From: Patescibacteria group bacterium
GTDB lineage: Bacteria > Patescibacteriota > Minisyncoccia > Phycocordibacterales > JAKFXT01
Assembly: GCA_021731245.1 (NCBI GenBank)
Contig: JAKFXT010000002.1
Location: 24,164 to 88,163, forward strand
Reading direction: 5' to 3'
Length of the DNA: 64,000 bases
Positions 50,837 through 59,195 of this stretch are shown here, piece by piece (position 1 is the first letter of the stretch; the number at the start of each line of letters is the position of its first letter). The translations under genes were made by a program, and so were the position numbers. The notes beneath the pieces are model-generated. The model was given only the letters and a program-made list of their open reading frames with translations, was not told the DNA's origin and ran no database searches.

Positions 50837-51316
50837 ATGTCACACATAAACGAGAAAATTGACTACACAGTGGATGTTTATATTGTCTACAAAAATAAAG
50901 TACTGCTCCGTTTACATGAAAAATACAATGTTTGGCTTGGAGTTGGTGGCCACATAGAACTTGATGAAAATCCAAATCAAGCAGCAATTCGTGAAGTAAA
51001 AGAAGAAGTTGGTCTCGACATAACTATTTTTAATTCCTTAGATTTAGAAATATCTAAAATTAATAAAGAAAAAAAGAATGGAAAATATTTAGAATTAATA
51101 CCTCCAGTCTTTATGAATATGCATCCAATAGATGATATTCACAGTCATGTATCTTTAATATATTTCGCTGAAGCCAAGAATGATGAGGTTATTCCAGAAA
51201 ACATTGATGATCAATGGAAATGGTTGTCCAAAAAAGAATTAGAGGAAATGCAAAATGAAATTCATCCTCAAGTTTATCTCTATGCAAACAAAGCATTAGA
51301 GTGTTTGACAAATTAA
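50837..51316 (+). CDS. Nudix hydrolase
   Basis: Perfect Nudix box, GGHIELDENPNQAAIREVKEEVGL (Gx5Ex7REUxEExGU). Confidence 0.75.
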   Translation: MSHINEKIDYTVDVYIVYKNKVLLRLHEKYNVWLGVGGHIELDENPNQAAIREVKEEVGLDITIFNSLDLEISKINKEKKNGKYLELIPPVFMNMHPIDDIHSHVSLIYFAEAKNDEVIPENIDDQWKWLSKKELEEMQNEIHPQVYLYANKALECLTN

Positions 51317-51921: not shown

Positions 51922-52179
51922 TTACTCCTTCCATGAAAAGGTTTCTCCTTCCTCAATGCCAGCGAACTTGGATTCTTTGACTTCGACCTTGAACTCGCCG
52001 TTCTGGTCCTTCTCGTAGACATAGACCAGCACCGTTCCTTTCGGTGTGATGGGGGTGTCGAGGTTTCCGTATTTTATGACGAGATTTATTTCCAGTTTTT
52101 CCCCCGTTTGGATGACAGTAGCCCCGTACAGACCGCTTTCGAGGTCAGACGATGGCTTAAGCAGGGAAATATCGGGCAT
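51922..52179 (-). CDS. Hypothetical 85-aa protein
   Basis: AAAGGA SD, GC-rich codon usage, and its own terminator. Confidence 0.45.
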   Translation of the reverse strand: MPDISLLKPSSDLESGLYGATVIQTGEKLEINLVIKYGNLDTPITPKGTVLVYVYEKDQNGEFKVEVKESKFAGIEEGETFSWKE

Positions 52180-52248
52180 ATAATGTCCTTTGCAGAGGGT
52201 CAGAATTGACTAATTTGCACATTATCTTGTTTTACAAAAAGTGTCTAT

Positions 52249-52278
52249 TCATTACCCTTTGACCAAATAAGGAGTCGA
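52249..52278 (+). promoter_or_regulatory. Candidate promoter for the 52330 gene. It is embedded in a repeated 17-mer.
   Basis: TTGACC-N18-TAATGT. The -35 lies inside TTACCCTTTGACCAAAT (52242-52258). Confidence 0.4.
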
Positions 52279-52329
52279 GAGTAATGTATTTTTAGGCAGT
52301 TCAACTAATTCCGACAGGAGGATTCCGCA

Positions 52330-52740
52330 ATGGCTGCAATGAAAGCTCCAAAAAACAAACCTTTCGCAACCAAAGCGAAAGTCCTTTTCTATGATGGATT
52401 GAGAGTCTTTGCCACCGAAGTGCCACACGGCCTCAAAGTGGTTTTCTGGCCGATTGAGAGTCAGCGTCATTACAAAAATACGCCCGCAACGATGGGGAGA
52501 TTGATTCTCTTGACCAATGCTCCTCGCGAAAGTCACGTGCTGCTCGAAGTGGATGGCGTTCCAAGAAAAGAATGTGGGCGCATGATGCGAATTCTTGGCT
52601 TTTGCTTCATCAGCGGAGACCACCGCGAAGGACATTTCTTGTCCTCTCGCAAAATGTCGAGAAACCATCGCAGTCACGATTCTCGCAACAAACTCATCAA
52701 CCAGTGGGTCAAAGGAGAAATCGACACCTGCTCACGTTAA
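52330..52740 (+). CDS. Hypothetical 136-aa protein
   Basis: Strong RBS ACAGGAGGattccgcaATG and a clean downstream terminator. The overlapping antisense ORF lacks both. Confidence 0.5.
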   Translation: MAAMKAPKNKPFATKAKVLFYDGLRVFATEVPHGLKVVFWPIESQRHYKNTPATMGRLILLTNAPRESHVLLEVDGVPRKECGRMMRILGFCFISGDHREGHFLSSRKMSRNHRSHDSRNKLINQWVKGEIDTCSR

Positions 52741-52745
52741 AATTC

Positions 52746-52790
52746 AACCGCTTCACAGGAAACCTGGGAGCGGTTTTCTGTTTTTATAAT
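52746..52790 (+). terminator. Rho-independent terminator
   Basis: AACCGCT-tcacaggaaacctggg-AGCGGTT followed by ttctgttttt. Confidence 0.6.
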
Positions 52791-52798
52791 TGAAAAAA

Positions 52799-52966
52799 TT
52801 ATTCAGGTTTCTTTTTATAAACTTCGTAAGCTGAATAAAGAACGAGCCAGACACAAAATATATAGAGCCAAGTATCATCTTTGCCGTTTACCCACCAAGC
52901 GATTACAAGAAAAGCAAAGACCCCGATGAAGACGAACATCATTCCGTATTTCTTTAAGATATCCAT
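52799..52966 (-). CDS. Possible 55-aa two-helix membrane peptide (MDILKKYGMMFVFIGVFAFLVIAWW...)
   Basis: An ATG-initiated ORF below the track threshold. Hydrophobic, found by manual translation. Confidence 0.3.
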   Translation of the reverse strand: MDILKKYGMMFVFIGVFAFLVIAWWVNGKDDTWLYIFCVWLVLYSAYEVYKKKPE

Positions 52967-53001
52967 AATATTTCAATTGTTACAGATGGATTATTTGTTT
53001 T

Positions 53002-53205
53002 TTATGAACTACCATCACCACCGCCACTGCCGCCATCACCAGTAGAGCCTCCGTCAGTACTTTCAGAGCCATTTGCTCCATCTGCTTCAGAGCCTGACTC
53101 TTCAGAATCATCTGAGGGAAAGACGGGAGCAGTATAGGCGCCTCCATCTCCACTATCCTTATTAGGTTTCTTAGGTCCAAACATTTTTTTGAATATTTCA
53201 AACAT
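53002..53205 (-). CDS. Hypothetical small acidic Gly/Ser/Asp-rich protein (67 aa)
   Basis: Low-complexity acidic tail (DGGSTGDGGSGGGDGSS). Preceded on the minus strand by a ~290-nt GC-rich leader. Confidence 0.35.
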   Translation of the reverse strand: MFEIFKKMFGPKKPNKDSGDGGAYTAPVFPSDDSEESGSEADGANGSESTDGGSTGDGGSGGGDGSS

Positions 53206-53284
53206 ATAACTAATTATATCAGGCTTTGTATCTTACCTCCTTGACCAAATAAAAAAAGCCGCACCCAATTTATTTTTATTATAA

Positions 53285-53490
53285 ATTCTGGGGTACGGCT
53301 GGTATTGCGAGCCAACAAACGAGCTGACATCGAGAGTGTTTCGAGCAAAACAACGAGAAGAACAACGAGTCGCGAATGACCCCCGAGGAACCACGACGCG
53401 CATCAGACCTTGAAAGAACTTGGGGACGGCCGTCCCTTTCGAACTCCCAGAAGACCTGTTGGCCTAGCGTCAACCGTAACCCCTCGGAGG
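53285..53490 (-). ncRNA. Candidate structured GC-rich non-coding RNA or long 5' leader. Family unknown.
   Basis: Upstream minus-strand promoter TTGACA-N18-TATTTT (plus coordinates 53497-53526). The ends pair (GGGGTTACGG with CCGTACCCC). Internal hairpins include GGGACGG/CCGTCCC. No convincing ORF. Confidence 0.3.
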
Positions 53491-53551
53491 TATATAGAAA
53501 ATAACAATTAGATGACTTTCTGTCAATTCACCCTCGAAAAAGGAGATTGTC

Positions 53552-54037
53552 TCACAAAATAGAAAAAGTAAGTGTCATTGGAGAATGGAAAGGTGTGGCA
53601 CTCCATTGCCCCTTTAACTTACGAAAACATTCTTGCGTCATTCTAATAGATTCCTCAATAAGCCAAGGCGGCAATGGTTCATGATAACTATTATATAAAT
53701 TATTAAAGCTCTCCATCGCTTCAATGGGAGTAATTAAATCTTTCATTACAGCCGTTAGTACTCCTACGACTCGCTCGGTATTTACGATCTCAGAATCTCG
53801 CAGTGGGTCTGAGCTACCTAGCCCAGAAGAAAGCTCAGCGTAAGATTTTCCTGATGCCAATAATCCAAAGAACGAATATTTAAGGCCCACCTGTGTTTCA
53901 AGTGCATAATGAATCAAGTCATGCTCAAGGGTGCTCTTCGTCTCATTTTTTACTATATCCCAGTCTCCATCTCCTTTTCTATATTCAAACATGTGATGGG
54001 TCGGGGATATTCGGGTAAAACGGATCGTGAGAATCAT
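53552..54037 (-). CDS. Hypothetical 161-aa protein
   Basis: ORF in the island with no recognised motif. Confidence 0.45.
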   Translation of the reverse strand: MILTIRFTRISPTHHMFEYRKGDGDWDIVKNETKSTLEHDLIHYALETQVGLKYSFFGLLASGKSYAELSSGLGSSDPLRDSEIVNTERVVGVLTAVMKDLITPIEAMESFNNLYNSYHEPLPPWLIEESIRMTQECFRKLKGQWSATPFHSPMTLTFSIL

Positions 54038-54129
54038 TCACTTATTTTATCAAATTATGTAGAACCTTGAAAAAGGAAAGAAAAGTGATAGAAATAAAGG
54101 TAGACCACCTCACAGGAGGGAGATAACAC

Positions 54130-54225
54130 ATGGAAGACCACGGTGATACGATTCCGCCAGTCGGCTCTTATCAGACGATTGCCTTCGCGGTTTGCCACCC
54201 AGTAAAATTCGTACAGTCGCTCTAG
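54130..54225 (+). CDS. Possible 31-aa peptide (MEDHGDTIPPVGSYQTIAFAVCHPVKFVQSL)
   Basis: Strong RBS CAGGAGGGagataacacATG. Upstream TTGAAA-N17-AGAAAT at ~54066. A downstream plus-strand terminator at 54268-54296. Confidence 0.3.
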   Translation: MEDHGDTIPPVGSYQTIAFAVCHPVKFVQSL

Positions 54226-54267
54226 AGAATGTTTACCGAAGCGGCTGGCTGGCAATAGCCCACCTTT

Positions 54268-54296
54268 TTCTCAACCCCCCGCTTCGGCGGGGTTTT
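54268..54296 (+). terminator. Rho-independent terminator (plus strand)
   Basis: CCCCCCGC-ttcg-GCGGGG followed by ttttttc. Confidence 0.6.
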
Positions 54297-54370
54297 TTCT
54301 TTACCCTTTGACCAAATGGGGGATTAGGTGGCAAAAGATATAAAACAGGATGATGTGCGGAAAGAAAAAA

Positions 54371-54676
54371 TTACCTCTTCTTCGGTTTTGGTTTCTCAGG
54401 TCCTTTCTTGTCAGAATCTCCAATATCTTGTATCGGAGACATTAACGGTTCATTCGAAAGCCGAGCGTCAAATTTTTGTCCAGTTTTCGCTTCGATTTCT
54501 TCTACTTGTTTTAAAAGCAATCTTCCTATTTGTTTGGCGGTGGCTAAGTGGAAAAGAAACGTATATTTCTCTGTCCCTGACCTCAACCAGAACTGAAGTA
54601 AGCCATTCACAGCCTGAGCTTTAGCTTCGTCGACAAAAATCTTTTCAGGGCCATTTGTAAATATAGGGTCTTCCAT
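54371..54676 (-). CDS. Hypothetical 101-aa protein with a basic C-terminal tail. Apparently leaderless.
   Basis: Near-consensus promoter TTGACA-N16-TAGAAT whose -10 ends ~7 nt before the ATG. No SD. Confidence 0.5.
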   Translation of the reverse strand: MEDPIFTNGPEKIFVDEAKAQAVNGLLQFWLRSGTEKYTFLFHLATAKQIGRLLLKQVEEIEAKTGQKFDARLSNEPLMSPIQDIGDSDKKGPEKPKPKKR

Positions 54677-54682
54677 ACAAAC

Positions 54683-54710
54683 ATTCTATTACTGTGAATA
54701 ATAGTGTCAA
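54683..54710 (-). promoter_or_regulatory. Near-consensus sigma70 promoter (TTGACA-N16-TAGAAT) for 54371..54676
   Basis: Plus-strand tgtcaa at 54705-54710 and attcta at 54683-54688. Part of a repeated 25-nt module that also occurs at 53521-53545. Confidence 0.45.
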
Positions 54711-54750
54711 TTACCCTTGAAAAAGGAGCTGAGGGGAGTAGGATGGGGGA

Positions 54751-55503
54751 ATGGAAACTTTTATTAAGTGGTGGCCCAGAGTAATCGCTTTCATTTCAGG
54801 TTACATTTTGGGTTCATATATTATGGATTTTTGGTTAACTCGTGTATTGAAAATACCTACTACACTTGGAGATTGGGCATACATAGCAGAAATCATTACT
54901 GGGTTCTCAATAATTATTGCAATAATTGAGTATTACTCTCACCAAGAAAAAGATAAAAAAATTGCTGTTGCTGACCAAGTTCACATGCTACGAACCGAGG
55001 TGATTGATGGATATGAAAAAGCTTTCAGGTCAATAATTCCTGCTTTAAAGATAAAAATGTTAGTTTTTCCTAGACCAATACCTATTGTGGAAGAATTTAG
55101 TTACTCTTGGGTTATTGAAAATTATGAGGATATAACACAAGAGCAAAACTTTATTCTCAGAGAACTAATGAAAAACGATATTTATTGGGGACATAAAGAA
55201 ATTAACAGTTATTTAAATGTATTAGAGGAATTAGCAATTCGTATAAAAATAACCGGAACTGTAAATGACCCAACTTTGGGTGCCATAAAACAAACTTTTG
55301 TAAGTAGCGTTGAATTATTTTTAATAAAAATTTTAGAAATGATATCAAATAATGATTCTTATTATCGCAACATAAGGTGGCTTTATTCAAAGTGGTATAA
55401 AGACGAAGATGTTGACCGAAGCCTACTAGAAGTTAGACAGAAAAAAATTAATGACAGTATTGAGGATGGGGTTCGTAAAAAAAGAGAAAAACTATCTAAA
55501 TAA
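54751..55503 (+). CDS. Hypothetical protein with two N-terminal TM helices and a ~190-aa cytoplasmic domain
   Basis: AT-rich ORF at the island's right edge. No motif recognised. Confidence 0.45.
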   Translation: METFIKWWPRVIAFISGYILGSYIMDFWLTRVLKIPTTLGDWAYIAEIITGFSIIIAIIEYYSHQEKDKKIAVADQVHMLRTEVIDGYEKAFRSIIPALKIKMLVFPRPIPIVEEFSYSWVIENYEDITQEQNFILRELMKNDIYWGHKEINSYLNVLEELAIRIKITGTVNDPTLGAIKQTFVSSVELFLIKILEMISNNDSYYRNIRWLYSKWYKDEDVDRSLLEVRQKKINDSIEDGVRKKREKLSK

Positions 55504-55751
55504 GGTTTCTAACTTTTTTTTAATGAACGTGTGTTATGCCAAAGAAGATATGCCAAGCCATTTTTATAGTTACTTTTTCATATAAAAATAGGGAAGTGAC
55601 TCCCCCGATTTTATAAGAAATTTTTTAAAGAATTTATTTTGTAATTAATTCAAGTAGATTGTGCGATAGGAAAGTGATCTACGTTATCTTTTACGAATGT
55701 CGGACTTTGATTACTATTGCTTTTGCGACATTCGAGTTATAATTAGTAGAT

Positions 55752-56426
55752 ATGACCCTTCGTACACAAAAGACTGGGACCCAATCACCTTGGACGACAG
55801 AAGAACTTAAAAGTGGTTTATTACATTTTCATAAAGAAAATGGTCATTATCCAACTTCAACAGAAATTGATAACTATCAATATTTACCTTCAGCAAGAAC
55901 AATTGAAAGAAGTCACGGTGGGCTCGTTGAATTGAGGAAAAAATTAGGCCTTGGCGATGAACATGACTACAGATTAGGCTCTCACAGCTCAAAACGAGCT
56001 CATACCATCAATACCAGAGCTCACAAAACAGAAGATATTGTCTACCAATTTTTAATTGAAAAGTTTGGCAAAGAATTTGTGCATCGTGAATACTTTTTTA
56101 CTGATGATCACCGTACAAGAGCTGATTTCTTCGTCTACGATGAAGGAAAGGGCTTCTGTGTAGATGTATTCTACCCAAACTCAACAAGAAACCTCACAGG
56201 ATGCCTCAATATAAAGTTAAATAAATATAATAAAGAATACATGGGCTTTGTCCCATATCCAGTCATTTTCCTACAAATGAATGAGAGTATAGACGATGAT
56301 TCATTAAATAAACTCCTGAAAAATAAAAAGCGCCAATTATTAAGTAATCAATACCTAATGGGTTGGGAAGCATTCAAAGAATTCACTAAATCTAGAAAAG
56401 CTTTGTCTGTTAGAAGAACCAAATAA
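55752..56426 (+). CDS. Hypothetical protein, possibly endonuclease-like (Vsr/PD-(D/E)xK-like core)
   Basis: RADFFVYDEGKGFCVDVFYP resembles the ...DF.....VDG..WH... core of Vsr/DUF559-type endonucleases. The N-terminal W..EEL......G..P helix is HTH-like. Weak. Confidence 0.35.
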   Translation: MTLRTQKTGTQSPWTTEELKSGLLHFHKENGHYPTSTEIDNYQYLPSARTIERSHGGLVELRKKLGLGDEHDYRLGSHSSKRAHTINTRAHKTEDIVYQFLIEKFGKEFVHREYFFTDDHRTRADFFVYDEGKGFCVDVFYPNSTRNLTGCLNIKLNKYNKEYMGFVPYPVIFLQMNESIDDDSLNKLLKNKKRQLLSNQYLMGWEAFKEFTKSRKALSVRRTK

Positions 56427-56655
56427 TATTAAAGGGGAGTATCGTTTTAATTAAACCCCACACCCCCTTTACTTCTATAGCTTATAGCTATGTCGCACAA
56501 GCTTCCCGCGTAAAAGATATATTGTGCGACGTTACCTCTATAGAGCCTTTGACCCATCAATACAACCTTAAAGACCCCTTCCCTTACTTAATATGTTTAT
56601 ATTGTTTTGGATTCCAGGCTGGCGTACAAGATATAAATATTTCCATATTCCCTTG

Positions 56656-56922
56656 CTAATAAAACTTTTCTTTTTTATTTATTAAAATTAAATCCCCAGA
56701 ATTTATTTTTTTACTTTTACCATTTATAACGACTTTCCCTGAACCATTTAATACATAGGCCATTTCCTTTGACTTCAGGTTCGTTGATACCCCATTTTGA
56801 GGATATCTACCACTTATTTTGGCCAAAGCGCCGTTTATTGAACGTTCTTTGAGCCCATACTCATAAACCAAACAATTTTTATCATTAAACTCTTTCCTCT
56901 TTATCTTTTTAATTATTTCCAT
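56656..56922 (-). CDS. Small cupin-like protein (88 aa)
   Basis: Glycine-rich beta-barrel pattern (AYVLNGSGKVVINGKSKKINSGDLILI). Confidence 0.35.
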   Translation of the reverse strand: MEIIKKIKRKEFNDKNCLVYEYGLKERSINGALAKISGRYPQNGVSTNLKSKEMAYVLNGSGKVVINGKSKKINSGDLILINKKEKFY

Positions 56923-57358
56923 AAATTTCTTTTCTTATTTTCATCCAAATTTTACCCATCATGTTTTCTCCTGAACCATTTTCTCCCGTACCCCAGAAAT
57001 AATCTTCTGGATGATTTTTCTCAATAATTTTATCAGCGGTCTTTATAAGCATTCTTTTGACATCGTCATGCTGTTCTAATTTTGCCTTCATAACCTTTTC
57101 CATGACAGAAACCTTATCAAAAGGTTCCTTGCGACCATTTTTACTTCCTCCATACTCTCTGGCAAGAAATGCGCTCGGAGCTTCTTTTATCTTCTTTCTT
57201 ATTTCAATATCAGAAAATTTGGAAACCTGATAGGCATGTTCTGATGTCATATACTCTTCCCCCTCGAATACTACTTTGTGCGCTGAGAAATTTGAAAGAA
57301 GATAGAATGGCCCTTCGTAAAATTTAATTTTATTATCATCAGTAGACTTACTCTCCAT
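56909..57358 (-). CDS. NADAR/YbiA-family (DUF1768) protein
   Basis: FYLLSNFSAHKVVFEGEEYMTSEHAYQVSKF... and the DYFWGTGENGSGENMMGKIWMKIR region match YbiA/NADAR. Confidence 0.7.
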   Translation of the reverse strand: MESKSTDDNKIKFYEGPFYLLSNFSAHKVVFEGEEYMTSEHAYQVSKFSDIEIRKKIKEAPSAFLAREYGGSKNGRKEPFDKVSVMEKVMKAKLEQHDDVKRMLIKTADKIIEKNHPEDYFWGTGENGSGENMMGKIWMKIRKEIYGNN

Positions 57359-57665
57359 ACATTTCTAATTTTATTTTTTGAAGCTCCTCAATTGTTTTTG
57401 AATCAGTAATTTTTGTAAATCTAGGAAAAGTTTTTCCATCTTTTTCTACCATACCCATCCACATATCTAATGGGCGCACAACATGTGTCGCCGGAGCTAA
57501 AAAATCATTTTCATAAAGAGGTCTGTATATGACGGTGTAATTTCGTTCTTCAGAATGAAGTGCGACTCCAACATATTCATAAGAATAGTTATTCATATCC
57601 CCTTTCGGGTCGTGTTTGTAATGATAATAGAATCCTTTTTCCGGAATTTTTTTAATTATCTCCAT
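57348..57665 (-). CDS. Small conserved protein, paralog 1 (resembles DUF1653 by recall)
   Basis: KGFYYHYKHDPKG...YRPLYE...VRPLDMWMG.VEKDGKTFPRF.KITD. About 60% identical to the adjacent gene. Confidence 0.45.
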   Translation of the reverse strand: MEIIKKIPEKGFYYHYKHDPKGDMNNYSYEYVGVALHSEERNYTVIYRPLYENDFLAPATHVVRPLDMWMGMVEKDGKTFPRFTKITDSKTIEELQKIKLEMYGE

Positions 57666-57990
57666 ACATTTCTTTTTTAGTTTTTTCCAATTCTTTTATA
57701 ATTTTTTCATCAGTAATCTTGGCAAATCTAGGAAATGTCTTCCCATCTTTTTCTACTATACCCATCCACATATCTAATGGACGAACATCATACATTTTAC
57801 CTGCCTTGTAAACTGCCGCCTCATATAATGGTCTATAAATTATCATATTCTCATCTTCCGGTCGGCAATCTTCTTCTGTGTGCACTCCTGCGCCAATATA
57901 TTCATAAGCGTAATTATTTACACTCCCCTTCGGGTCGTGTTTGTAATGATAATAAAATCCTTTTTCAGGAACTTTAGTAGGTATTTTCAT
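57652..57990 (-). CDS. Small conserved protein, paralog 2 (tandem duplicate)
   Basis: Same motif set as 57348..57665. The two genes overlap by 14 nt. Confidence 0.45.
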   Translation of the reverse strand: MKIPTKVPEKGFYYHYKHDPKGSVNNYAYEYIGAGVHTEEDCRPEDENMIIYRPLYEAAVYKAGKMYDVRPLDMWMGIVEKDGKTFPRFAKITDEKIIKELEKTKKEMYGDN

Positions 57991-58019
57991 ATAAAAAATA
58001 ATATCACATAAACAGAAAT

Positions 58020-58048
58020 CGTCCGCGAGACGATCTCTGCGGACGAAA
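58020..58048 (-). terminator. Rho-independent terminator for the 58051..58506 gene
   Basis: GTCCGC-gagacgatctct-GCGGAC followed on the minus strand by gatttctgttt. Confidence 0.5.
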
Positions 58049-58050
58049 AA

Positions 58051-58506
58051 CTACTTTGCTTTGGGATATTTGGGATACCAGAATGGATGCCACGTCCACG
58101 GCAAAATCTTGTAGATATAGCTTGAGTGCCATCCAAACCTGGTGATGATCCAACGATTCTGGTCTTCGATGTCTTTCCAGCCGTTGTCATACCCTATTTG
58201 CCACCCCGAATCTCCCCAGTCCACCCCGATGCGAGTTCCAGAAGCTCCTCCTGGGGCCTCAAACTTCCACTTGCGAAAGTTGAACTTGAAAACCGCGAAG
58301 TGGATACGGCCCTTATAGGCGCTTCCCATAGGCCACTGCCAGAAGTAGAGATCCCAGCTAAAGAAGCCGTAGAACCTCCAAGAAACGAGGGGCGGAATGG
58401 AGTTGTTCAAGAAGAAGTCCTTGAAACTCCACCAAAACGACCTGAACCTGAAACCAATGCGACTTTCAATGCGACGGAACGCTTCCAAACAAATCGAGTT
58501 TCTCAT
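58051..58506 (-). CDS. Hypothetical Trp/aromatic-rich protein (14 Trp in 151 aa), GC-rich
   Basis: SD GGAAGGGG sits 8 nt upstream. Terminators lie on both sides. The overlapping plus-strand ORF looks like a wrong-frame reading. Confidence 0.5.
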   Translation of the reverse strand: MRNSICLEAFRRIESRIGFRFRSFWWSFKDFFLNNSIPPLVSWRFYGFFSWDLYFWQWPMGSAYKGRIHFAVFKFNFRKWKFEAPGGASGTRIGVDWGDSGWQIGYDNGWKDIEDQNRWIITRFGWHSSYIYKILPWTWHPFWYPKYPKAK

Positions 58507-58593
58507 TTTGAAAACCCCTTCCTGAGTTGGTGTTCTGTAGCAAAAATACTGCCTACTTGTAACATTAAAAAATTAATAGACTAATGTAAAGCA

Positions 58594-58625
58594 AAAAGCC
58601 CCCCGATGTTACATCGGGGGGCTTT
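58594..58625. terminator. Bidirectional rho-independent terminator
   Basis: GCCCCCCGATG-ttac/gtaa-CATCGGGGGGC flanked by A and T runs. Confidence 0.65.
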
Positions 58626-58736
58626 TTGGATAATTTCTGGTTTTATAATGACAAGCGAGGAGCGGAGCGAAAATTTATTTTCATTTCGTCCGAGTGAAGT
58701 CATTATATAAGAGCGACCTCACCTTTCCTGCTGCTT

Positions 58737-59195
58737 CTATTTCTTATTAAGAGCCAACTTTGCTTCAGTTTTTAACTTAGCTATTTTTGGTCCCCAACAA
58801 GGCTTTGAGGCACTCCATGGTTGTAAGCCTTCTCTCTCATAGAGATATCTAGCGTATGCCATATTGCCTTTCAAGTCATAGATGTCGTAACCAAGTTCTT
58901 CTGAGTCTACCTGATGGTAGTGCTCATTAACCTGCATAACACCTACGTCCTTACTATTAACCACACCGCGAATCGTATTACCTTCACTATCCGCTTGGCG
59001 GAAACGTGACTCACAATACGCTACTTGAATCATCTCTGGGATGTCTTCAAAGTATGAACGAACTTCTTTTTCAACGAAAATGTATTTCTTATTCTCCTTG
59101 CGGGAACTTTCCGTTATTAGCACTTCCTCCTGTTTAGGAGTTGGTACTTGTTCGTTTACCGGTTGATTATCATTATTGTTAATGTTCGAGATCAA
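58737..59195 (-). CDS. Transglycosylase-like (lysozyme-like) domain protein. Start codon uncertain (TTG in the track, no in-frame ATG).
   Basis: VAYCESRFRQ...GVMQVNEHYH resembles Rpf/SLT-like transglycosylase domains (CES...G..Q.N..W). The in-frame upstream region encodes a hydrophobic stretch without an ATG. Confidence 0.45.
   Translation of the reverse strand: MISNINNNDNQPVNEQVPTPKQEEVLITESSRKENKKYIFVEKEVRSYFEDIPEMIQVAYCESRFRQADSEGNTIRGVVNSKDVGVMQVNEHYHQVDSEELGYDIYDLKGNMAYARYLYEREGLQPWSASKPCWGPKIAKLKTEAKLALNKK

What the first reader, a model, noticed from the sequence alone, without database searches (positions are those of the whole stretch)
56656..57990. Cluster of a cupin, a NADAR/YbiA-family protein and two tandem DUF1653-like paralogs with overlapping genes
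Four minus-strand genes lie head-to-tail with 11-14-nt overlaps. Two ~105-aa paralogs are ~60% identical and share the motifs KGFYYHYKHDPKG…IYRPLYE…VRPLDMWMG.VEKDGKTFPRF.KITD. Next is a YbiA/NADAR-domain protein, a family whose members include N-glycosidases and, by established work, ADP-ribose-processing enzymes. Last is a small cupin. Recent tandem duplication and tight translational coupling suggest a functional module. NADAR domains have been linked to reversal of nucleic-acid ADP-ribosylation, which makes a role in defence, counter-defence or metabolite damage control plausible.
Basis: partly seen in the sequence, partly recalled or inferred. Interest (0 to 1): 0.55.

Follow-up and report, generated by a model that had tools for sequence, protein, structure and literature searches.

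The report
Small DUF1653–NADAR–cupin operon in a Patescibacterium
Four small overlapping genes in a tiny-genome groundwater-type bacterium (two unknown-function DUF1653 barrel proteins, a YbiA-type sugar-base-bond hydrolase and a broken cupin gene) form a real operon that looks like nucleotide/ADP-ribose clean-up housekeeping, not a defence system, so it is only mildly interesting.

Summary
Four minus-strand ORFs overlap by 14, 11 and 14 nt. Two are DUF1653 proteins, 63% identical. One is a YbiA-type NADAR. The last is a cupin.

The interpretation needs three corrections.
- The cupin is cut short by a TAG at a conserved Trp codon, so it is probably a recent pseudogene.
- The DUF1653 pair is not a recent duplicate. 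Copy A is the "long" subtype. Copy B has a "short"-subtype N-terminal part and a long-type C-terminal part.
- No toxin (ADP-ribosyltransferase, ART) or defence signature lies nearby.

The window is a Patescibacteria (CPR) chromosome.

The DUF1653–NADAR link is facultative. NADAR lay within 5 kb in 1 of 80 DUF1653 loci, and DUF1653 lay near 0 of 80 broad NADAR loci. Among nine close Patescibacterial NADAR contexts, DUF1653 was adjacent in two and nearby in a third. A natural DUF1653::NADAR fusion also exists, as do NUDIX::DUF1653 and nucleotidyltransferase::DUF1653 fusions. NADAR orthologs usually sit beside NUDIX, ITPase-like, HIT and ASCH genes.

DUF1653 models as a Tudor/SH3-like barrel, not an enzyme fold.

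Best reading: a nucleotide/ADP-ribose housecleaning operon, with DUF1653 as an accessory binding protein. The families are known and the novelty is modest.

The parts
57652..57990 (-). DUF1653 paralog A (112 aa), 'long' subtype with the EDCRPED insertion. It is the first gene of the operon.
   Evidence: ORF. Pfam PF07866 at 42.9 bits against cutoff 23.5. Its N-terminal part is 93% identical to P0002 of the relative L170.
57348..57665 (-). DUF1653 paralog B (105 aa), a mosaic. Residues 1-63 are the 'short' subtype and the C-terminal third is long-type-like.
56909..57358 (-). YbiA-type NADAR protein (149 aa), with no N-terminal extension. It carries E40, K47, E113, D119 and W122.
   Evidence: Pfam NADAR at 83 bits against 35.1. 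TIGR02464 at 83.1 bits against 73.7. PDB profile search: E. coli YbiA 2b3w at E=5e-34, 8bau at 1e-9. Residue conservation; residue roles from PMC11543638.
56656..56922 (-). Cupin ORF truncated to 88 aa. It lacks the last beta-strands.
   Evidence: ORF. Sub-threshold cupin hits. The 113-aa homolog next to NADAR in L004 passes the Cupin_2, AraC_binding and Cupin_3 cutoffs.
56656..56658 (-). Premature TAG stop at the conserved Trp codon of the cupin (window KFY*QG against homolog KYFWVG).
   Evidence: TAG is an ordinary stop in 12 of 53 long ORFs of the window. The same allele is present in Logan contigs L001 and L002.
56584..56655 (-). Remnant 3' end of the cupin gene: 23 in-frame codons plus TAA, still homologous (the TPAW motif is kept).
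57646..57684 (.). Direct-repeat copy at the A/B overlap junction (39 nt).
   Evidence: the repeat finder family D4, 85% identical to 56903-56941, spacing 743 nt.
56903..56941 (.). Direct-repeat copy at the NADAR/cupin overlap junction (39 nt). With its partner it brackets the B+NADAR unit.
   Evidence: family D4.
58592..58628 (.). Perfect 17-18 bp GC-rich hairpin with T/A runs on both sides. It terminates the upstream SLT-like gene and marks the upstream limit of the operon's promoter region.
   Evidence: (I5).

Best explanation
This is a lineage-specific, co-transcribed and probably translationally coupled operon of small housekeeping genes in a Patescibacteria (CPR) chromosome.

Its enzyme is a 'naked' YbiA-type NADAR. 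This is an N-glycosidase that cleaves ribosyl-N bonds. The family's demonstrated substrates are riboflavin-pathway ribosylamino-pyrimidines and guanine-linked ADP-ribose.

In Patescibacteria its orthologs sit in mix-and-match clusters of nucleotide and ADP-ribose 'housecleaning' enzymes: NUDIX, NTPase_I-T/ITPase, Ham1, HIT and ASCH. The likeliest role is therefore removal of aberrant or toxic N-ribosyl/ADP-ribosyl compounds or adducts, that is, damage control.

The two DUF1653 proteins are non-catalytic Tudor/SH3-like beta-barrels, rich in conserved Tyr, His, Lys and Arg. I infer that they act as accessory ligand- or partner-binding subunits that are sometimes coupled to NADAR, NUDIX or nucleotidyltransferase enzymes.

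The cupin is a His-poor (one His), non-metal type, and it has recently been inactivated by a nonsense mutation.

Shown: gene identities, overlaps, the truncation, the mosaic paralog history, the neighbourhood statistics and the fold. Inferred: co-transcription, the substrate, and any physical DUF1653-NADAR partnership.
For: Gene identities are.

The window is a CPR chromosome. It carries ribosomal protein L9, RNase T and DoxX, and is syntenic with L175. All DUF1653 relatives come from Patescibacteria MAGs.

Neighbours of the NADAR orthologs:
- L003: NADAR-NUDIX-ASCH-HIT, then NUDIX-NTPase_I-T-NUDIX-MTase-Ham1.
- L004: NADAR-cupin-NUDIX.
- L007: DUF1653-NADAR-NUDIX.
- L171: HIT-NADAR-NUDIX.
- L182: NADAR-ASCH.
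- L183: DUF1653-NADAR-NTPase_I-T-HhH-GPD.
- L134: cupin-NADAR-S51-NUDIX.

Natural fusions exist: DUF1653::NADAR, NUDIX::DUF1653, DUF1653::NYN and CTP_transf_like::DUF1653.

Catalytic residues are conserved (PMC11543638).

The literature already links NADAR with Nudix and NAD salvage (PMC9503650).
Against: The linkage is rare overall: 1 of 80 DUF1653 loci and 0 of 80 broad NADAR loci. DUF1653's usual neighbours are unrelated housekeeping genes such as L9, L27, GluRS, SecDF and an M23 peptidase.

AF2 of the natural fusion gave pTM 0.56 with a disordered linker, so no confident interface was predicted.

Most CPR bacteria lack riboflavin synthesis (my own knowledge, not tested here), so the classical YbiA substrate may be absent.

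DUF1653 proteins are near-neutral or acidic (median pI 6.2), which argues against generic nucleic-acid binding.

The broken cupin shows that the four-gene set is not under joint selection.

No expression data are available.
Confidence: 0.55

Rival explanations
1. Fortuitous packing. The four genes are unrelated small housekeeping genes pushed together in a compact, recombination-shuffled region of a reduced genome. The overlaps reflect genome compaction rather than a shared function.
For: 79 of 80 DUF1653 loci lack NADAR and 80 of 80 broad NADAR loci lack DUF1653. The close relatives L170 and L175 have different partners at the same syntenic site: GNAT or SDR instead of the cupin, and no DUF1653 in L175. 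The cupin is decaying. The CPR nucleotidyltransferase domain is fused promiscuously to many small domains.
Against: Adjacent pairs recur and involve two different DUF1653 subtypes (70-aa and 105-aa), so they are unlikely to trace to one event. An in-frame DUF1653::NADAR fusion exists. My rough estimate of the chance rate is about 1% per context.
Confidence: 0.28
2. Nucleic-acid repair or counter-toxin module. The NADAR removes ADP-ribose from guanine in DNA or RNA after modification by foreign ART toxins. DUF1653 would supply the substrate-targeting surface that 'naked' YbiA-type NADARs lack, by analogy with the N-terminal extension of DarT1-associated NADARs.
For: YbiA-family enzymes hydrolyse guanosine-ADPr in vitro (PMC11125620). 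DarT1-associated NADARs have an N-terminal extension proposed to bind ssDNA (PMC11543638). In the fusion P0404, DUF1653 sits N-terminal to NADAR. DUF1653 is also fused to a NYN RNase and to NUDIX. L183 has a DNA glycosylase and RecQ downstream. The Tudor/Sm-like fold is compatible with this role.
Against: DUF1653 proteins are not basic (median pI 6.2). No confident domain docking was predicted. No ART was found nearby. The association is rare.
Confidence: 0.12
3. Toxin-antitoxin or anti-phage system. The NADAR would be the antitoxin, as in DarT1-NADAR or YarT-YbiA, and a neighbouring small protein (DUF1653 or the cupin) would be the toxin.
For: The YarT-YbiA pair shows that YbiA-type NADARs can be antitoxins next to a small toxin gene (PMC11125620). 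There are weak hits to PADLOC PDC-M42C (26.9 bits) and to NCBIfam DS32_2 (46.5 bits).
Against: Neither neighbour has an ART fold. DUF1653 is a Tudor/SH3-like barrel and the other neighbour is a cupin. DUF1653 occurs without NADAR in 79 of 80 loci, which is incompatible with an unneutralised toxin. The DS32_2 score is far below its cutoff of 240. The locus sits in conserved chromosomal synteny rather than in an island of defence genes.
Confidence: 0.04

Closest known systems
E. coli YbiA (PDB 2B3W), the YbiA family of the NADAR superfamily (PF08719 / TIGR02464)
   Same: A single 'naked' NADAR domain of about 150 aa. The profile E-value to 2b3w is 5e-34. It scores above the TIGR02464 cutoff. The catalytic Glu/Lys pair, the last-strand Glu and the D..W motif are conserved.
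   Different: The host is a CPR bacterium that probably lacks the riboflavin pathway, so the physiological substrate is unknown. Here the gene overlaps a DUF1653 gene upstream and a cupin gene downstream.
DarT1-NADAR and YarT-YbiA toxin-antitoxin pairs
   Same: They contain a NADAR hydrolase encoded in a tight two-gene arrangement. YbiA-family members can reverse guanine ADP-ribosylation.
   Different: No ADP-ribosyltransferase gene is adjacent. The window's NADAR lacks the Asp variant and the N-terminal extension of DarT1-linked NADARs. The neighbours are a beta-barrel protein and a cupin.
DUF1653 (PF07866; crystal structure 3BE3, Bordetella bronchiseptica, function unknown)
   Different: The Patescibacterial form is longer (105-112 aa). 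It has an added C-terminal helix and a very conserved GFYYHYKHD motif. It comes in two subtypes (long and short), and both are present here in tandem.
CarD/CdnL/Mfd RNA-polymerase-interacting domain and other Tudor/SH3-like barrels
NAD+/ADP-ribose network neighbourhoods (NADAR with Nudix, NadM-type adenylyltransferase, Macro, SLOG) described by Aravind and co-workers
   Same: NADAR orthologs lie next to NUDIX genes, and a cytidylyltransferase-like enzyme is nearby in L004.
   Different: DUF1653 and this His-poor cupin were not mentioned as members in the passages I read. A full-text search for 'DUF1653' found a single unrelated paper.

Membership tests
NADAR superfamily, YbiA family | Match to the family HMMs above the curated cutoffs | tested here: met
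   PF08719 at 83 bits (cutoff 35.1). TIGR02464 at 83.1 bits (cutoff 73.7).
NADAR superfamily, YbiA family | Conserved catalytic Glu and Lys (E43/K50 in P. nicotianae), Glu rather than Asp or His in the last beta-strand, and the D..W motif | tested here: met
   E40 is invariant. K47, D119 and W122 are at least 90% conserved in 48 homologs. E113 sits in 'IIEKN', aligned to E. coli 'LVEHT' with a one-residue loop insertion. The position of E113 rests on my reading of the alignment, not on a structure.
NADAR superfamily, YbiA family | Core YbiA fold without an N-terminal extension | tested here: met
   The protein is 149 aa. The HMM covers residues 13-145, and the profile match to 2b3w is full length.
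NADAR superfamily, YbiA family | N-glycosidase or ADP-ribosyl-guanine hydrolase activity | not testable with these tools
   This needs a biochemical assay.
DarT1-NADAR / YarT-YbiA toxin-antitoxin systems | An adjacent ADP-ribosyltransferase toxin gene | tested here: not met
   The upstream neighbours are DUF1653 proteins (Tudor/SH3-like). The downstream neighbour is a cupin. The next gene is convergent and has no ART hit.
Known anti-phage defence systems (PADLOC, NCBIfam DS32_2) | A protein match at family-level score | tested here: not met
   The only PADLOC hit is PDC-M42C at 26.9 bits, for the NADAR. DS32_2 scores 46.5 bits against a cutoff of 240. The other three proteins have no hits.
DUF1653 (PF07866) | HMM match above the cutoff and the 3BE3-like fold | tested here: met
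Cupin superfamily (Cupin_2 / EutQ-like) | HMM match above the cutoff | tested here: inconclusive
   For the window protein, even with the stop read as Trp, Cupin_2 scores 23.1 bits against 27.2. The orthologous 113-aa protein in L004 passes Cupin_2 (29.4), AraC_binding (26.6 against 21.1) and Cupin_3 (25.6 against 23.5).
Cupin superfamily (Cupin_2 / EutQ-like) | An intact double-motif barrel, with metal-binding His residues in enzymatic cupins | tested here: not met
   The ORF stops at codon 89 of about 112. The read-through sequence has one His in total and it is not in the motif positions.
   B's N-terminal part is 73% identical to P0011 but 54% to A. A's N-terminal part is 93% identical to P0002 and 81% to P0063. 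Among the top 120 homologs, 56 are short-type and 56 are long-type.

The most novel reading that the evidence does not exclude
DUF1653 is a previously unrecognised accessory domain of the NAD+/ADP-ribose-processing network. It would be a small aromatic-rich barrel that binds an ADP-ribose-type or nucleotide ligand, or a modified nucleic-acid end. It would hand that substrate to, or regulate, YbiA-type NADAR, NUDIX, NYN and nucleotidyltransferase enzymes. On this reading the DUF1653-NADAR operon in this window is the unfused form of such a two-component hydrolase. It would give a first functional handle on a protein that is very well conserved across Paceibacteria-type CPR bacteria.
Probability: 0.2. 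Interest if true: 0.5.

Novelty: new member of a known kind. Interest (0 to 1): 0.3.

Why it matters
If the facultative DUF1653-NADAR/NUDIX link is functional, it would give the first lead on DUF1653. This is a structurally solved family of unknown function with about 2,100 clusters at 50% identity. It is unusually well conserved in Patescibacteria, with 54% mean column identity. The link would also hint at how 'naked' YbiA-type NADARs obtain substrate specificity. Otherwise the locus is an ordinary small-gene operon. It shows how reduced CPR genomes shuffle, recombine and lose small housecleaning genes. It does not point to a new defence system.

Tried and rejected
- **Rfam.** A search of the whole window at gathering threshold found nothing. 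A search of 56300-58800 at E<=1 gave only far-sub-threshold hits centred on the terminator hairpin.
- **Defence and phage libraries.** PADLOC and PHROGs gave no defence signature. The NADAR matches phrog_1017, which has unknown function.
- **Stop-codon reassignment as an explanation for the cupin TAG.** Rejected, because TAG ends 12 of 53 long ORFs in the window.
- **DUF1653 as a minimal ART toxin** (it has conserved H, Y and E residues). Rejected on fold and on its distribution without NADAR.
- **Unsupervised clustering of neighbours.** In the 80 DUF1653 loci no neighbour family occurred in more than 14 loci, and those that recurred were housekeeping genes. In the 80 metagenomic NADAR loci no neighbour family occurred in more than 9 loci. 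Those loci are too diverse and the contigs too short to be informative.
- **AF2 of the natural DUF1653::NADAR fusion with an unpaired MSA.** It gave pTM 0.56 and a disordered linker, so it is inconclusive for an interface.
- **The afdb50 fold library.** It was not available.
- **Full-text search for DUF1653.** It returned one unrelated proteomics paper.
Full report
**Observation.** The ORF listing shows four minus-strand ORFs at exactly the stated positions: 57652-57990 (112 aa), 57348-57665 (105 aa), 56909-57358 (149 aa) and 56656-56922 (88 aa). Each start codon lies 11-14 nt upstream of the previous gene's stop, giving overlaps of 14, 11 and 14 nt (sequence). Pfam gives DUF1653 for both, at 42.9 and 56.5 bits against a cutoff of 23.5. 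It gives NADAR for the third, at 83 bits against 35.1. The fourth gets only sub-threshold cupin hits. NCBIfam places the NADAR above the cutoff of TIGR02464, 'riboflavin biosynthesis intermediates N-glycosidase' (83.1 against 73.7), and far below the anti-phage NADAR model DS32_2 (46.5 against 240).

**Genomic setting.** The window is cellular, not viral. It carries tRNA-Ala. On the same strand upstream of the cluster it carries ribosomal protein L9, an RNase T-like exonuclease, DoxX and a small SLT-like protein. All close homologs of all four proteins come from Patescibacteria/Paceibacteria MAGs. A relative, L175, has the same order: L9, L27, a 119-aa gene, RNase T, DoxX, a 131-aa gene and NADAR. 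The NADAR therefore sits in conserved chromosomal synteny. A perfect 17-18 bp hairpin at 58592-58628 terminates the SLT-like gene. The cluster's promoter must then lie in 57991-58590. The gene downstream of the cupin is convergent. The same four-gene arrangement, with the same truncated cupin, is present in two Logan contigs.

**The cupin is broken.** The 88-aa ORF ends at a TAG. In the same frame, 23 further codons follow down to a TAA at 56584. The homolog that follows NADAR in L004 and L005 is 113 aa. It aligns as 'GDLILIEPGEKYFWVGDLTMFVSSTPAWYPEQ' against the window's 'GDLILINKKEKFY*QGNMEIFISCTPAWNPKQ'. The TAG therefore replaces a conserved TGG (Trp) codon. TAG is a normal stop in 12 of 53 long ORFs of the window, so recoding is unlikely. 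The preserved downstream homology indicates a recent nonsense mutation. The L004 protein passes the Cupin_2, AraC_binding and Cupin_3 cutoffs, while the window protein read through the stop stays just below them. It has a single His, so it is not a classical metal-dependent cupin.

**The paralogs are not a recent duplicate.** Among the 120 best homologs there are two equally common subtypes. The 'long' subtype has an EDCRPED-like insertion and VYKAGK. The 'short' subtype has neither. Copy A is long-type. Copy B's N-terminal two-thirds are short-type, at 73% identity to P0011 and 70% to P0003 but only 54% to A. B's C-terminal third is long-type-like, at 77% to A, 95% to P0002 and about 50% to short-type proteins. 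P0002 is the single DUF1653 of a close relative, L170, whose SLT-like gene is 88% identical in DNA to the window's. At the DNA level P0002 follows A over the first ~240 nt and B over the last ~100 nt. Recombination between tandem copies has therefore shaped this locus, either as a deletion in L170's lineage or as conversion here. None of the 80 other DUF1653 loci has a tandem pair. Polypeptides with two DUF1653 stretches do exist elsewhere, for example P0454. A 39-nt direct repeat, 33/39 identical, marks both the A/B junction and the NADAR/cupin junction and brackets the 743-nt B+NADAR unit. I did not resolve whether this reflects a recombination event or convergent coding of similar termini.

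**Is it a conserved module?**
- *From the DUF1653 side.* A scan of one genome per GTDB species returned 271 relatives, and I examined the best 80 loci with ±5 kb of flank. NADAR occurs in only one of them, L049. There the order is DUF1653, an NTPase_I-T gene and a NADAR fragment. The usual neighbours are L9, L27, GluRS, SecDF and an M23 peptidase, each in at most 14 loci.
- *From the NADAR side, broad sample.* Eighty metagenomic loci, mostly 37-48% identical and from many phyla, contain no DUF1653. One of them, L134, contains this cupin directly upstream of NADAR, followed by Peptidase_S51 and NUDIX genes.
DUF1653 lies immediately upstream of NADAR in L007 (a 70-aa form with a 14-nt overlap) and in L183 (a 69-aa form). 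In L004 it lies 2.3 kb away, as a CTP_transf_like::DUF1653 fusion. L170 adds a fourth linked pair.

With a rough chance expectation of about 1% per context (my inference), this is an enrichment. The events are few, and L007 and L183 may share ancestry, because both lie downstream of SecA. The commoner NADAR neighbours are NUDIX (L003, L004, L007, L171, L134), NTPase_I-T (L003, L183, L049), ASCH (L003, L182), HIT (L003, L171) and Ham1 (L003).

**Fusions.** An exhaustive profile search of 1.84 billion representatives found 2,105 DUF1653 proteins at E<=1e-3. Among the longer hits, Pfam shows three fusions:
- DUF1653::NADAR: P0404, 241 aa, in frame with a short linker.
- NUDIX::DUF1653: P0367.
- DUF1653::NYN: P0359.

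P0404 is encoded next to two NUDIX genes and a PNPOx-like gene (L181). The CPR cytidylyltransferase-like domain is fused to DUF1653 in about five sequences, but also to DUF3850, a cupin, HAD and other domains. One PfkB 'fusion', P0393, looks like a frameshift artefact. Together with the adjacent pairs, these fusions make a facultative functional link between DUF1653 and NADAR/NUDIX-type enzymes plausible.

**What the NADAR is.** A profile of 48 homologs matches E. coli YbiA (2B3W) at E=5e-34 and the extended NADAR 8BAU at only 1e-9. Schuller et al. (PMC11543638) describe E43, K50, E125, D130 and W133 of the P. nicotianae enzyme as contacting ADP-ribose and name E125 as the YbiA-family marker. 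The corresponding residues here are E40, K47, E113, D119 and W122. The protein has no N-terminal extension. According to PMC11125620, YbiA-family enzymes also hydrolyse guanosine-ADP-ribose in vitro, and one is the antitoxin of the small ART YarT. PMC9503650 describes NADAR as co-occurring with Nudix and NAD-salvage genes and as probably acting on soluble ADPr derivatives. There is no ART next to this gene, and PADLOC finds no system. The TA/defence reading is therefore not supported.

**Mechanism proposed.**
- *Shown:* gene identities, overlaps, the truncation, the mosaic paralog history, the neighbourhood counts and the fold.
- *Inferred:* the genes are transcribed from a promoter in 57991-58590 and translated by coupling across the ATG-N8-11-TAA overlaps.
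- *Inferred:* the NADAR cleaves an N-ribosyl bond in an aberrant nucleotide or ADP-ribose-type compound or adduct, as part of the housecleaning set that CPR genomes keep (NUDIX, ITPase-like, HIT, ASCH).
- *Inferred:* the DUF1653 proteins, possibly as an A/B heterodimer, bind a ligand or the enzyme.
- *Inferred:* the cupin is no longer functional.

I give this reading a confidence of about 0.55. The main rival is that the juxtaposition has no functional meaning (0.28).

**Novelty and verdict.** All four proteins belong to known families. The NADAR-NUDIX context is already described. The defence idea fails. The 'recent duplication' and 'intact module' claims are wrong. What may be new is the recurrent but facultative coupling of DUF1653 to NADAR, NUDIX and nucleotidyltransferase enzymes. 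A full-text search found no paper discussing DUF1653 function. This is a modest lead, not a surprise. Interest: 0.3.

Noticed in passing
window 56584-56658: The cupin has an in-frame TAG at a conserved Trp codon, followed by 23 still-homologous codons. This looks like a fresh pseudogene. The same allele is present in two Logan assemblies.
   Followed up: yes
window 56903-56941 and 57646-57684: A 39-nt direct repeat (33/39 identical) sits at two gene-overlap junctions and brackets the 743-nt DUF1653-B+NADAR unit. It could be a recombination scar or convergent coding of similar protein termini (EMYGDN*/MEIIKK against EIYGNN*/MEIIKK).
   Followed up: partly
window 57348-57665; locus L170 1327-1662: DUF1653-B is a mosaic of a short-type N-terminal part and a long-type C-terminal part. 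The close relative L170 has one DUF1653 that is A-like in its 5' two-thirds and B-like in its 3' third. L170's NADAR is only about 45% identical to the window's and is followed by a GNAT gene instead of the cupin.
   Followed up: yes
window 57991-58590: This ~600-nt stretch has higher GC (about 0.42). Its only ORFs are two mutually antisense ~151-aa ORFs (58051-58506 minus strand, Trp-rich; 58126-58584 plus strand, Pro/Glu-rich). Neither has a Pfam, PHROG or PADLOC hit, and Rfam finds nothing there. The relative L170 has an unrelated 132-aa gene at this position. Its nature is unexplained.
   Followed up: partly
window 58592-58628: A perfect 17-18 bp GC-rich palindromic hairpin is flanked by A/T runs on both sides. 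It is a likely bidirectional intrinsic terminator after the SLT-like gene. It also attracts spurious sub-threshold Rfam leader and sRNA hits.
   Followed up: partly
window 52000-56430: This is a block of ORFs without family matches (53552-54037, 54371-54676, 54751-55503, 55752-56426), and GC is raised at 50-54 kb. The 224-aa ORF at 55752-56426 has a sub-threshold homing-endonuclease-associated repeat hit. The block may be a variable or mobile region abutting the operon.
   Followed up: no
L181 1644-2369 (P0404); P0367; P0359; L004 6875-7585: Natural DUF1653 fusions exist: DUF1653::NADAR, NUDIX::DUF1653, DUF1653::NYN and CTP_transf_like::DUF1653. A two-DUF1653 polypeptide also exists (P0454).
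   Followed up: partly
L003, L007, L171, L182, L183: In several Patescibacteria the NADAR gene lies a few genes downstream of secA. A variable set of small genes lies around it: M15 peptidase, HIT, DUF1653, NUDIX, ASCH and NTPase_I-T. This looks like a hotspot for small housecleaning genes.
   Followed up: no
window 50837-51316 (+): A NUDIX hydrolase gene lies about 5.3 kb from the cluster. It is not adjacent, unlike in most NADAR-ortholog loci.
   Followed up: no
L134 4609-6741: In an unrelated metagenomic contig of 593 kb, the same cupin family lies directly upstream of NADAR with a 7-nt overlap, followed by Peptidase_S51 and NUDIX genes. This is a second independent cupin-NADAR adjacency.
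   Followed up: partly
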